Positions 47,701-50,700 of a stretch of 64,000 bases of DNA are shown in pieces (the stretch's first letter is position 1; every line of letters begins with the position of its first letter). The stretch lies in the NCBI RefSeq assembly GCF_022846255.1, contig NZ_AP025682.1; one strand, 5' to 3'. This stretch comes from Escherichia coli. GTDB lineage: Bacteria; Pseudomonadota; Gammaproteobacteria; Enterobacterales; Enterobacteriaceae. A program made the position numbers.

Positions 47701-50700
47701 ACGCTGACCGCGGTGCCGGTAAAAGCCAGCGACGCGGCGCTCAGTGAAGGGAACTTCTCTGCCTGGGCAACCTTAACGGTGGATTACCAATGAATCTGAC
47801 TCGCACACATTACCGCTACGCGGCGCTGGCGGCGTTGCTGGCGTACGGCGGCATGGCGCAGGCTGCTGACAACCTGCATTTCTACGGCAATTTACTCAGT
47901 AAATCCTGCACGCTGGTTATCCAGGGCGAAACGCTGGCAGAGGTGCATTTTCCCACCATCAGCCGTAAAGACCTGATGGCGACCGGTCAGTCGGCGCGGG
48001 TGCCGGTGGTGTTTCAGTTGAAAGATTGTAAAGGGCCAGCCCGGTATGAGGTTCGGGTGACGCTCACCGGCACGGAAGACAGCGAACAGCCCGGTTTTCT
48101 GGCGCTGGATGCGTCCTCAGGGGCGCAGGGCGTGGGGATTGGCATGGAAAAAACCGACGGAACGGCGGTGCCGATCAACAACACCAGCGGTGCGACCTTT
48201 GTGCTGAGTAACGGCAATAACAATCTGAATTTTAATGCCTGGCTCCAGGCGAAAAGCGGCCGGGAAGTGACGATGGGGGATTTTACCGCCTCCCTGACTG
48301 CGACATTTGAGTACATATAAAATGAAAATACTACGATGGCTGTGCTGCCTGGTCATGCTGACTTGCTCAGCAGAAAGTCTGGCGGCGAAGAAAATTGCAA
48401 CATTGATAACCCCGCTGGCATATTCCGGATGGTCAACACAGATACACTATTATCTTGAGATTCTGACCCCTGAGGGTGTTGCATATGGTGTTTATAAACA
48501 ACATAGCATTATGCTTCAAGCTGAGAATTTGGATTTAGTTTCCTGGACCGGAAGTAATACAGTTGCGCCCACATTGAAAGCGGAATCTGTTCAATTGATT
48601 TCGGATTCAGCTTGCCCTGGGCTTGGTGAGTACGATACGGCGGCAAAGACATCTTCTTGGGACTGTGAGAATATTACGCTTGGCGTGTACTATGATGGGC
48701 CTGTGGACGGTTGCCCATGGTTGATTTCGACATATACAGATAGCATTATTCTGATGGATGGCATCGGCCCCTATGTCGGACCCAAAGTGCATAACTCATC
48801 GTGCCCCGTCTCCGTCGCTACTTATGATATTTCGTGGAGTGAAGATTATGTTGCCCATTCGAAAGTGCTGTCGCTGCAATCGACGGGCGGAACGATTGAG
48901 AAAACGCTGCCCACCTTCTTGATGGAAAGCGGCAAGCTCTGTGACAGTAGCGTAATGGATGACCGCGGCGCCTATTGCCGCTTTGTAGCGCAAATGATCA
49001 CCTTCTCCACCTCCGGCTGTGACAGTTCGAAAGTGACGGTTACACCCAACCCGTATCCCATTACTGACAAGCGACTGCACGACATGGTAGTGCGTGTCGA
49101 TACCAGCAGCCGCCAGCCGATTGATTCCACCTGCCGCTTCCAGTACACGCTCAACGAGCTGTAGCGTATACACCACACACGATGCGGGGCCATCTGGCCC
49201 CGTTGTCCGTTATGTCATGCGGTCATCCAGTTTTTTAGAATATTCGCCACCACAGGAGCGAAAGGTGCCAGATAACCGTCAACGAGGGTGAGTAATTCGT
49301 CGATAAGCGCTTGCAGCAGGTCGTCATCCTCAAGCCCCTCTGAAGGGGCAATGCCATTAGCCCACAGAAGGCTGTCGGACAGCTGCTTACGTTTTTCAAT
49401 TAATGCCCGATTATTACGTTCATTATTGCCAGGGTTGAGACGCCAGTATTCAAGGCTAAATGGCCCGACTCATCCACCTTTTAATATTCAGGGTAATTCC
49501 GGCGGCAACCACTCTTCCACTTCAATCAGCACCAACAACGCCGCATCGCCACCATACTCTTTTGGTGCCTGGTGAAATGCCATCACATGCGGATGTTGCG
49601 CCAGCCACAGCGGCGTTTGCTGCTTCAAAATATGCTTCCCGTGCCCATGCATCACGCAGGCACAAAACACATGTTCGCGGCGACAGGCGGCAATCAACGC
49701 CCCCAGTTCCTGTTTGGCTTGCAACTGCGTCAGACCGTGCAAATCAAGAAACAACTCCGGTGAATAATCACCGCGTCGCAACTTCTTCGCCTCAAAATGG
49801 CTGACACCCGGGCGAACATATTTGACCGGACCTTCGGTATTTAATAATGGTTGAAATTCGTCCGAAAAATAGTGGCTGGCATCGGCCTGTTCCTGAATCA
49901 ACCGCTTTACTGGTACTTCGCTGATTTTTTTACGCTGCGGTCGGTGGACAATCGTGTCCTGCTTAATCTTGCGAGTACCCGCCATCAACTGGCGAAACAG
50001 CGCCTGGTCCTCCTCGCTAAGTGTTGTTTTCTTTTTCATTTAACTGTCTCTATTTCTAATTTTCCTACAGTTTACCCGACTCGTAGCACAATCGATCGTT
50101 TTAAACGTATTTTTCCTCACTCACCGCGCGTGAATGCTGATTTATCGTCATCTTCATGGCAAACTAGCCGCCGAAATTATTGCGATCATGCCCTGGAGGA
50201 ATACGTGGATAAAATTTTCGTTGATGAAGCAGTAAATGAGCTGCAAACCATTCAGGACATGTTGCGCTGGTCGGTGAGCCGCTTCAGCGCGGCGAATATC
50301 TGGTACGGCCACGGCACCGATAACCCGTGGGATGAAGCCGTGCAACTGGTGTTGCCTTCGCTCTACCTGCCGCTGGATATTCCGGAAGACATGCGCACCG
50401 CGCGTCTGACCTCCAGCGAAAAACACCGTATTGTTGAGCGCGTGATCCGCCGCGTCAACGAGCGCATTCCGGTGGCTTACCTGACCAACAAAGCCTGGTT
50501 CTGCGGCCATGAATTTTACGTCGATGAACGCGTGCTGGTGCCGCGCTCGCCGATTGGTGAACTGATCAACAATAAATTTGCCGGACTCATCAGCAAGCAA
50601 CCGCAGCATATTTTAGATATGTGTACCGGTAGCGGCTGCATCGCCATTGCCTGTGCTTATGCCTTCCCGGAAGCGGAAGTCGACGCGGTGGACATCTCTC

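What the first reader, a model, noticed from the sequence alone, without database searches (positions are those of the whole stretch)
49165..49487. Protein-like 84-codon reading frame without a canonical start, just downstream of smrB
On the minus strand, plus coordinates 49,218-49,469 translate as VGPFSLEYWRLNPGNNERNNRALIEKRKQLSDSLLWANGIAPSEGLEDDDLLQALIDELLTLVDGYLAPFAPVVANILKNWMTA with no ATG/GTG/TTG start. A 5-codon ORF with an SD-like AAGGTGG lies in another frame at its 5' end. It could be a frameshifted remnant, a gene using a non-canonical start, or coincidence.
Basis: seen in the sequence. Interest (0 to 1): 0.3.

Follow-up and report, generated by a model that had tools for sequence, protein, structure and literature searches.

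The report
Leftover tail of a deleted phage-defence gene
The start-less 84-codon frame downstream of smrB is the leftover last third of ptuB, the nuclease gene of a two-gene Septu anti-phage system that is intact at this spot in other E. coli strains; it is an ordinary, decaying gene scar and not a hidden gene.

Summary
Window 49469-49218 (- strand) translates exactly as reported, has no usable start codon, and fills most of the 323-bp gap between smrB and the yfcO-like fimbrial adhesin gene.

It is a gene remnant. Residues 11-84 are 93% identical (E 9e-48) to residues 146-219 of a 219-aa HNH endonuclease. In 184 of 5,426 complete E. coli genomes that gene sits at this same site, behind an ABC-type ATPase gene. 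PADLOC classifies the pair as Septu PtuA and PtuB (E down to 1e-168 and 1e-94).

In the window and in 474 of those genomes (CFT073, UTI89, Nissle 1917, ATCC 25922, ATCC 11775 and others), about 1.86 kb is missing: ptuA plus the first 145 codons of ptuB, including the whole HNH core. A 48-bp stretch of unknown origin takes its place, always at the same junction, which indicates one ancestral event.

The stub shows neutral decay:
- 12 nonsynonymous against 5 synonymous variable sites.
- Three family-invariant residues replaced.
- Frame-breaking indels in some carriers.
- The 5-codon mini-ORF's ATG lost in others.

No promoter-like site or Rfam family was found. The finding is ordinary and of low interest. 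The origin of the 48-bp leader remains unexplained.

The parts
49215..49439 (-). 3' remnant of ptuB, the Septu HNH nuclease gene: 74 codons plus the original TGA stop, read from 49439 down to 49215 and equivalent to PtuB residues 146-219. This is the C-terminal part that follows the HNH core.
   Evidence: blastn homology to cassette-bearing strains begins at 49439, which equals L001/L002 position 12001. BLASTP gives 93% identity over 74 aa, E 9e-48 and E 6e-47. PADLOC PtuB model PDLC00344 matches at positions 139-212 of 213, E 1.6e-22. tblastn of intact PtuB against the window hits only 49439-49218.
49218..49469 (-). The 84-codon stop-free frame as reported, read from 49469 down to 49218. Its first 10 codons (VGPFSLEYWR, 49469-49440) are an accidental in-frame extension into the leader and are not PtuB sequence.
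   Evidence: Translation. The PADLOC and BLASTP alignments start at residue 11. The only canonical starts are GTG at codons 73 and 74 and ATG at codon 82.
49440..49487 (-). 48-bp leader of unknown origin between the smrB stop and the ptuB stub. It contains AAGGTGG (49480-49474), the 5-codon mini-ORF (49473-49456), the start of a 25-codon GTG ORF (49477) and the in-frame TGA (49472-49470).
   Evidence: It is absent from the intact cassette and from K-12-like and E2348/69-like intergenic regions, with local-alignment scores at or below shuffle means. It occurs once per genome in exactly 474 E. coli genomes, always at this locus. Its core has no match in one-genome-per-species contigs. The mini-ORF ATG is ACG in L009 and L012.
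49185..49202 (.). G+C-rich hairpin CGGGGCC-AGAT-GGCCCCG between the ptuB stop and the yfcO stop. It is inherited with the stub and is probably the terminator structure shared by the convergent transcription units.
   Evidence: Fold energy is -27 kcal/mol on the - strand (z -2.7) and -24.6 kcal/mol on the + strand (z -2.2). The same hairpin follows the ptuB gene in L001. The simple terminator scan did not call it because there is no clean T-run.
49488..50039 (-). smrB (183 aa), the intact upstream flank. The stub frame happens to be in the same frame as smrB, separated from it by two TGA stops.
   Evidence: ORF list. RefSeq annotation of matching genomes. Frame relation.
48307..49164 (+). yfcO-like StfH/YfcO family fimbrial adhesin gene, the convergent downstream flank.
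   Evidence: ORF list. Annotation of homologous loci.

Best explanation
The frame is a non-functional 3' stub of ptuB, left after loss of a type I Septu (PtuA ATPase + PtuB HNH nuclease) anti-phage cassette that occupied the smrB-yfcO intergenic site.

Shown: other E. coli carry the intact ptuA-ptuB pair at this same position. The window keeps only PtuB codons 146-219, the original stop codon and the downstream hairpin. About 1,862 bp present in L002 is replaced by 48 bp of unrelated sequence; the missing part comprises the 85-bp upstream spacer, all of ptuA and ptuB codons 1-145 including the HNH core. All 474 stub-bearing genomes share the same leader and junction.

Inferred: there was one ancestral deletion or illegitimate-recombination event, in a lineage that includes the classic ExPEC strains. 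The stub has since drifted neutrally. It is probably transcribed passively as part of the smrB 3' UTR up to the hairpin, but it is not translated into a functional product. It does nothing for phage defence, because published work shows that PtuB needs both its HNH site and PtuA.
For: - Orthologous-site intact copies: L001 and L002 have AAA ATPase + HNH endonuclease genes between smrB and yfcO, and 184 of 5,426 genomes hold at least 80% of the cassette.
- Family assignment of the intact genes: PADLOC PtuA E 2.8e-154 and 1.6e-168; PtuB E 2.1e-89 and 1.1e-94. Pfam finds AAA_21, AAA_23, AAA_15 and SMC_N on PtuA. NCBIfam finds PtuA and PtuB retron-Ec78 effector models below their cut-offs, and TIGR02646 (HNH) on PtuB residues 42-139.
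- Stub homology: 93% identity to PtuB 146-219, E 9e-48; PADLOC E 1.6e-22.
- Nothing else of the cassette is in the window.
- Single junction: stub matches start at query base 1863 in all 29 sampled rows; the 57-bp junction probe is found once in each of 474 genomes; 10 aligned alleles share leader and junction.
- Decay: 12 nonsynonymous against 5 synonymous variable sites, 71% against a neutral expectation of 76%. Family-invariant residues are changed: L148P, D150N, P197L. There is a +2 bp indel in L005 and a -1 bp indel in L006, and 2 of 29 evenly sampled stub rows have non-234-bp lengths.
- No usable start, no promoter-like site on the - strand, no Rfam family.
- RefSeq/PGAP annotates nothing over it in nearly all carriers.
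- Published mechanism: the PtuB H57A and PtuA E396Q mutants abolish defence, PtuB alone is not toxic, and the PtuB helical CTD binds the PtuA C-terminal extension (PMC12819146). HNH-motif and Walker-motif mutants abolish Septu immunity (PMC13096335).
Against: - The frame is still open in most carriers, including the window. This is expected under neutrality at roughly 4% divergence, but it does not exclude weak selection.
- The substitution counts are small (17 sites), so dN/dS of about 0.75 has wide error.
- The two indel-bearing alleles could in principle be assembly errors.
- The origin of the 48-bp leader is unexplained, so the exact event (simple deletion with filler DNA, or a recombination breakpoint inside ptuB during import of a yfc allele) is not resolved.
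- No expression data were available.
Confidence: 0.93

Rival explanations
1. The stub is translated from a non-canonical start, by readthrough, or from an in-frame TTG as in strain L007. It would then yield a free PtuB C-terminal domain with a function of its own, for example binding the C-terminal extension of a PtuA encoded elsewhere and modulating that Septu or retron system.
For: The frame is open in 8 of 10 aligned alleles. The retained part corresponds to the region that published structures describe as the helical PtuA-binding CTD. In L007 a TTG gives a 62-aa ORF that PGAP annotates as a hypothetical protein. ATCC 25922 carries the stub and, according to PMC13096335, a functional Septu elsewhere.
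Against: - There is no start codon in the first 72 codons; the window has TTA where L007 has TTG.
- No promoter-like site was found.
- The substitution pattern is neutral-like, and three invariant residues are replaced, including the invariant LNLGD motif.
- Some carriers have frameshifting indels.
- The solved Septu PtuB (8ee7) is only marginally similar to this PtuB subtype (E 0.22, HNH region only), so cross-binding to a different PtuA is unlikely.
Confidence: 0.03
2. The region now acts at the RNA level, as a long structured 3' UTR of smrB or as part of a convergent-transcription (excludon-type) overlap with yfcO. The coding appearance would then be only historical.
For: smrB-yfcO is listed among convergent pairs with overlapping transcripts in K-12 (PMC12288877). 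A stable hairpin lies at 49202-49185. The stub lies directly downstream of smrB with no terminator-like site between them on the - strand.
Against: No Rfam family matches. The sequence varies freely among carriers, including indels. Other E. coli lineages have entirely different sequences here, either REP-like or a 69-bp spacer, so no particular sequence is required. This reading would be compatible with the remnant explanation and is not an alternative origin.
Confidence: 0.04
3. The frame is a chance open reading frame in intergenic DNA with no protein ancestry.
For: A stop-free run of 84 codons in some frame appears in 390 of 2000 shuffles of this 323-bp region.
Against: The frame is 93% identical over 74 aa to a specific protein encoded at the orthologous site in other strains, E 9e-48. 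It also hits the PADLOC PtuB profile at E 1.6e-22.
Confidence: 0

Closest known systems
Septu type I defence system, PtuB HNH nuclease (PADLOC PtuB1 model PDLC00344; related to TIGR02646 / retron Ec78 PtuB NF041761)
   Same: The last 74 codons, the stop codon and the downstream hairpin are those of the ptuB gene found at this same locus in other E. coli (93% aa identity). They align to the C-terminal end of the PtuB profile.
   Different: The stub lacks residues 1-145, including the HNH core (TIGR02646 match at residues 42-139). It has no start codon and no adjacent ptuA, and three family-invariant residues are mutated. It is a fragment, not a functional member.
Intact smrB-ptuA-ptuB-yfcO locus of E. 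coli CUVET19-970, SMS-3-5 and ECONIH1 (L002; RefSeq WP_022645928.1 / WP_022645929.1)
   Same: Same chromosomal site and the same flanking genes. The stub DNA is 96-97% identical to the 3' 234 bp of that cassette.
   Different: 1,862 bp of the cassette is replaced by 48 unrelated bp in the window.
Other decayed ptuB genes: the IS3-family-interrupted ptuB of Oligella ureolytica (P0012 context) and the 187-bp internally deleted E. coli cassette (L001 type)
   Same: These are independent examples of Septu cassettes being inactivated while leaving annotatable C-terminal PtuB fragments.
   Different: The lesions and break points differ: an IS insertion near residues 118-128, and a microhomology-flanked deletion that removes the PtuA C-terminal extension and the ptuB start. 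In both cases ptuA is still present.

Membership tests
Septu PtuB (HNH nuclease subunit) | Significant sequence match to PtuB family profiles | tested here: met
   PADLOC PDLC00344 E 1.6e-22, but only profile positions 139-212 of 213. BLASTP to the locus-orthologous PtuB gives 93% identity, E 9e-48.
Septu PtuB (HNH nuclease subunit) | HNH (beta-beta-alpha-Me) catalytic core with the conserved Cys/His/Asn motif | tested here: not met
   In intact PtuB the HNH region is at residues 42-139 (TIGR02646; CAYCC...NEH). The window holds only residues 146-219.
Septu PtuB (HNH nuclease subunit) | Complete ORF with a start codon and ribosome-binding site | tested here: not met
   There is no ATG, GTG or TTG before codon 73, and an in-frame TGA lies immediately upstream.
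Septu system (PtuA + PtuB operon) | Adjacent ptuA gene encoding an ABC/AAA_15-AAA_21 type ATPase | tested here: not met
   tblastn of PtuA against the whole 64-kb window finds no hit better than E 7.6. smrB is directly upstream.
Septu system (PtuA + PtuB operon) | Anti-phage activity dependent on ATPase and HNH activities | not testable with these tools
   The literature shows that both activities are required (PMC12819146; PMC13096335). The stub has neither.
Gene remnant / unitary pseudogene | Homologous to part of an intact gene at the orthologous locus in related genomes, with the remainder missing | tested here: met
Gene remnant / unitary pseudogene | Relaxed selective constraint (neutral substitution pattern, indels, loss of invariant residues) | tested here: met
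   12 nonsynonymous against 5 synonymous sites, with a neutral expectation of 76% nonsynonymous. Indels of +2 and -1 bp in L005 and L006. L148P, D150N and P197L at invariant columns. The counts are small, so this is supportive and not a formal test.

The most novel reading that the evidence does not exclude
The retained PtuB C-terminal (PtuA-binding) domain is expressed at a low level, for example from a near-cognate start or as part of the smrB transcript. It would then act as a decoy or modulator of other PtuA-type ATPases (Septu or type I-A retron effectors) in ExPEC strains. Alternatively, the stub RNA tunes smrB-yfcO convergent transcription.
Probability: 0.03. Interest if true: 0.5.

Novelty: already known. 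Interest (0 to 1): 0.1.

Why it matters
The practical value is in annotation and evolutionary history. The result explains an odd protein-like frame in many well-studied ExPEC and probiotic strains (CFT073, UTI89, Nissle 1917, ATCC 25922, the type strain) as the scar of a lost Septu anti-phage system. It shows that the smrB-yfcO gap is a site where a defence cassette has been gained and lost. It documents at least two independent decay routes of the same cassette: the 1.86-kb loss and a 187-bp internal deletion. It also provides a simple lineage marker in the 57-bp junction. It warns against calling the stub a small protein, as happens in one RefSeq genome and in several metagenome gene calls. 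No new biology is implied.

Tried and rejected
- Pfam and NCBIfam scans of the 84-aa peptide found nothing. Only the defence-specific PADLOC library recognised it.
- Origin of the 48-bp leader. Local alignment against the intact cassette, the K-12-like spacer, the E2348/69 spacer and the Oligella IS gave scores no better than shuffles. A blastn word-11 search in 5,426 E. coli genomes found it only at this locus. An exact scan of one genome per species for its core found nothing. It has no other copy in the window. The origin is unresolved.
- A second genome-contig scan, using a conserved stub 25-mer, found only an E. coli-like contig labelled as a Citrobacter MAG, which carries the intact cassette.
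- The idea that a free-standing PtuB C-terminal domain is a recurrent, conserved mini-protein (prompted by the 73-aa Oligella protein P0012) was rejected. That gene is split by an IS3-family element at a different position, with ptuA and the ptuB N-terminal half still present.
- AlphaFold2 on intact PtuB without an alignment gave mean pLDDT 36.9, which is unusable.
- phmmer of PtuB against the PDB gave only marginal hits. A small profile reached 9n69_F at E 3.8e-5.
- The promoter and terminator scan found nothing on the - strand. Rfam found no match.
- The literature searches found no description of this stub or of smrB-yfcO as a defence-system site.
- A weak match of the PtuB C-terminal region to VCP-like ATPases (E 0.015-0.04) was judged to be chance.

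Full report
OBSERVATION

The window is the E. coli yfc-fimbrial / smrB / prmB / aroC region. The finding's coordinates (49165-49487) are exactly the gap between two convergent genes: a yfcO-like StfH/YfcO adhesin ORF (+ strand, 48307-49164) and smrB (- strand, 49488-50039) (annotation of matching genomes).

The - strand translation reproduces the reported 84-residue peptide exactly. The frame is 49469-49218, with its stop at 49217-49215 and an in-frame TGA at 49472-49470. The only canonical start codons in the frame are GTG at codons 73 and 74 and ATG at codon 82. The claim of no start is therefore correct for any meaningful product.

AAGGTGG lies at 49480-49474 and directly abuts the ATG of the 5-codon ORF (49473-49456). 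A 25-codon GTG ORF starts at 49477 in the third frame.

The open frame alone is not remarkable: 390 of 2000 shuffles of the 323-bp gap contain a stop-free run of 84 or more codons in some frame.

WHAT IT IS

A megablast of the region against 5,426 complete E. coli genomes showed that most carriers annotate nothing in the gap. In strains PK12 (L001) and CUVET19-970 (L002), however, the same DNA lies inside an 'HNH endonuclease family protein' or 'hypothetical protein' gene that follows an 'AAA family ATPase' gene, both between smrB and yfcO.

PADLOC assigns these two genes to Septu:
- PtuA: E 2.8e-154 and 1.6e-168.
- PtuB: E 2.1e-89 and 1.1e-94.

Pfam finds AAA_21, AAA_23, AAA_15 and SMC_N on the ATPase. 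NCBIfam finds the retron-Ec78 PtuA and PtuB effector models, below their equivalog cut-offs, and the TIGR02646 HNH model on PtuB residues 42-139.

The window's peptide residues 11-84 align without gaps to PtuB residues 146-219 at 93% identity, E 9e-48 (92%, E 6e-47 against L001). The peptide on its own hits PADLOC PtuB model PDLC00344 at positions 139-212 of 213, E 1.6e-22. A tblastn of intact PtuA and PtuB against the whole 64-kb window finds only this piece.

ANATOMY OF THE LESION

Window homology to cassette-bearing strains runs through smrB to its stop at 49488 (L001 position 10336). It resumes at 49439 (L001/L002 position 12001). Relative to L002, 1,862 bp is missing: the 85-bp spacer, all of ptuA and ptuB codons 1-145.

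In its place is a 48-bp leader (49487-49440). This leader is not found in the cassette, in the K-12-like spacer (a REP-like 121 bp), in the 69-bp E2348/69 spacer, or elsewhere in the window. Alignment scores are at or below shuffle means.

The first ten codons of the reported frame (VGPFSLEYWR) belong to this leader and are not PtuB sequence. The ptuB stop codon and the following hairpin, CGGGGCC-AGAT-GGCCCCG (49202-49185; -27 kcal/mol, z -2.7), are retained. The hairpin is shared with L001.

POPULATION PICTURE

- 184 of 5,426 genomes hold at least 80% of the cassette, for example SMS-3-5 and ECONIH1.
- About 474 hold only the 234-bp stub. In all 29 evenly sampled stub rows the match begins at the same cassette base, 1863.
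- A 57-bp probe across the smrB stop, the leader and the junction occurs exactly once in each of 474 genomes, always here. These include CFT073, UTI89, UM146, Nissle 1917, ATCC 25922, APEC O1:K1:H7 and the type strain ATCC 11775.
- Ten aligned alleles share the leader and the junction.

This pattern indicates one ancestral event, which is an inference. From my own knowledge, the named carriers are phylogroup B2 strains; I did not compute phylogroups.

EVIDENCE FOR DECAY

Variable sites in the 74 homologous codons are 12 nonsynonymous against 5 synonymous. That is 71% nonsynonymous against a neutral expectation of 76%, or dN/dS of about 0.75.

In an alignment of eight PtuB relatives with 31 invariant columns in this region, the window's stub has replaced three: L148P (in all stubs), D150N and P197L.

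Strain A32 (L005) has a 2-bp insertion and strain GF130 (L006) a 1-bp deletion inside the frame. I picked those two because their hit lengths were odd. The unbiased figure is 2 of 29 evenly spaced stub rows.

The mini-ORF's ATG is ACG in L009 and L012. At about 4% divergence a 74-codon frame is expected to stay free of stop codons more often than not, so its openness carries no weight; this is my own reasoning.

No sigma-70-like promoter is found on the - strand and no Rfam family matches.

In one genome (O170:H18, L007) codon 23 of the frame is TTG instead of the window's TTA, and PGAP there calls a 62-aa 'hypothetical protein'. Metagenome gene callers have likewise produced fragmentary proteins from this stub (P0001-P0005).

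WHAT THE INTACT SYSTEM DOES AND WHAT THE STUB LACKS

According to the literature, PtuA is an ABC-type ATPase and PtuB an HNH nuclease. Both activities are needed for defence. PtuB alone is not toxic. PtuB uses a helical C-terminal domain to bind the C-terminal extensions of a PtuA dimer (PMC12819146). An E. coli Septu cleaves tRNA-Tyr and acts like an abortive-infection system, and HNH-motif or Walker-motif mutants abolish its immunity (PMC13096335).

A small profile of this PtuB subtype aligns to the solved chain 9n69_F ('TIGR02646 family protein') at E 3.8e-5, through the conserved vLNLG motif and into the C-terminal part. The stub therefore corresponds to the region downstream of the HNH core. 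By inference from the published structures, that is the PtuA-binding helical domain. I could not confirm this with a model, because AF2 without an alignment gave pLDDT 36.9. Without the HNH core, PtuA or a start codon, the stub cannot be a working Septu component.

RELATED SEQUENCES ELSEWHERE

Full-length relatives at about 50% identity, each next to an AAA ATPase gene, occur on Enterobacter plasmids and in Aeromonas and Paraburkholderia records of the plasmid collection. None occur in phage genomes. This fits a horizontally mobile two-gene defence module.

The 73-aa Oligella ureolytica protein P0012 looked like a parallel free-standing C-terminal domain. It proved to be the distal half of a ptuB gene split by an IS3-family element at a different position (near residues 118-128), with ptuA intact upstream.

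The L001-type E. coli cassette carries a 187-bp internal deletion (L002 11416-11602, flanked by an 11-bp overlap of the two aligned pieces). This deletion removes the last 48 or so residues of PtuA and the ptuB start. It is a second, independent route of decay, also suggested by the two-piece hits H40 and H41.

RIVALS

- A translated PtuB C-terminal mini-protein acting as a decoy is not excluded, but it is disfavoured by the absent start, the neutral pattern, the mutated invariant residues and the indels. I put it at about 3%.
- An RNA-level role as the smrB 3' UTR or as a convergent-transcription overlap is compatible with the remnant origin. It gets weak support from smrB-yfcO being listed as an overlapping convergent pair in K-12 (PMC12288877), but the sequence is not conserved. 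I put it at about 4%.
- Chance is excluded by homology.

VERDICT

This is a decayed fragment of a known defence gene whose intact form is annotated at the same locus in other strains. It is ordinary and of low interest. The one unexplained detail is the source of the 48-bp leader.

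Noticed in passing
window 49440-49487: The 48-bp leader between the smrB stop and the ptuB stub has no detectable relative in the intact cassette, in other E. coli spacer types, elsewhere in 5,426 E. coli genomes, or in one-genome-per-species contigs. Its origin, and therefore the exact event that removed ptuA, is unexplained.
   Followed up: yes
window 49215-49490 (- strand): The stub frame is in the same reading frame as smrB, separated from it by two TGA stops (49490-49488 and 49472-49470). Two readthrough events would be needed to fuse them, so this is most likely a 1-in-3 coincidence.
   Followed up: no
L001 11603-11613 / L002 11416-11602: The cassette of strain PK12 has a 187-bp internal deletion relative to L002. 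It truncates PtuA to 404 aa, losing the C-terminal extension that the literature says is essential, and removes the first 12 codons of ptuB. It is probably a second, independent inactivation of the same Septu cassette. Hits H40 and H41 (two pieces, 90% coverage) look the same.
   Followed up: partly
L007 3037-3225 (E. coli O170:H18 CFIAFB20120266): The same stub is annotated by PGAP as a 62-aa hypothetical protein (WP_225915872.1), because this allele has TTG where the window has TTA. This stub allele is also much closer (99.1%) to the intact ptuB than the other stubs are (95-97%).
   Followed up: partly
L014 2603-6222 (Oligella ureolytica): A Septu cassette whose ptuB is split by an IS3-family element. 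It sits in a neighbourhood with a Schlafen/AlbA_2-HATPase_c_4 protein, an MqsA-like HTH antitoxin and a Fic protein, which looks like a small defence or toxin-antitoxin island.
   Followed up: partly
L004 3074-3194; L013 2574-2642; window 48000-49164: The smrB-yfcO interval exists in at least four states in E. coli: a REP-like 121-bp spacer, a 69-bp spacer, the intact Septu cassette and the Septu stub. The adjacent yfcO and fimbrial-subunit alleles are very divergent between strains (about 71-90% DNA identity), which suggests frequent recombination in this fimbrial operon.
   Followed up: no
L018 (DXKH01000145.1): A contig labelled 'Citrobacter sp.' MAG carries an smrB-ptuA-ptuB-yfcO arrangement with ORF lengths identical to E. 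coli L002 and an identical 25-mer. It may be a mis-binned or mislabelled E. coli contig.
   Followed up: no
P0004 (database protein, 86 aa): In some assembly the 25-codon GTG ORF from the leader (MDESGHLAL...) is fused by an indel to the PtuB stub frame. This shows that further frame-shifting variants of the stub exist and are being called as proteins.
   Followed up: no
window 49288-49575 (+ strand): A 95-codon GTG ORF lies antisense to the stub and to the smrB 3' end. Its product is serine-rich and of low complexity. It looks like a shadow ORF of the coding strands and not a gene.
   Followed up: no
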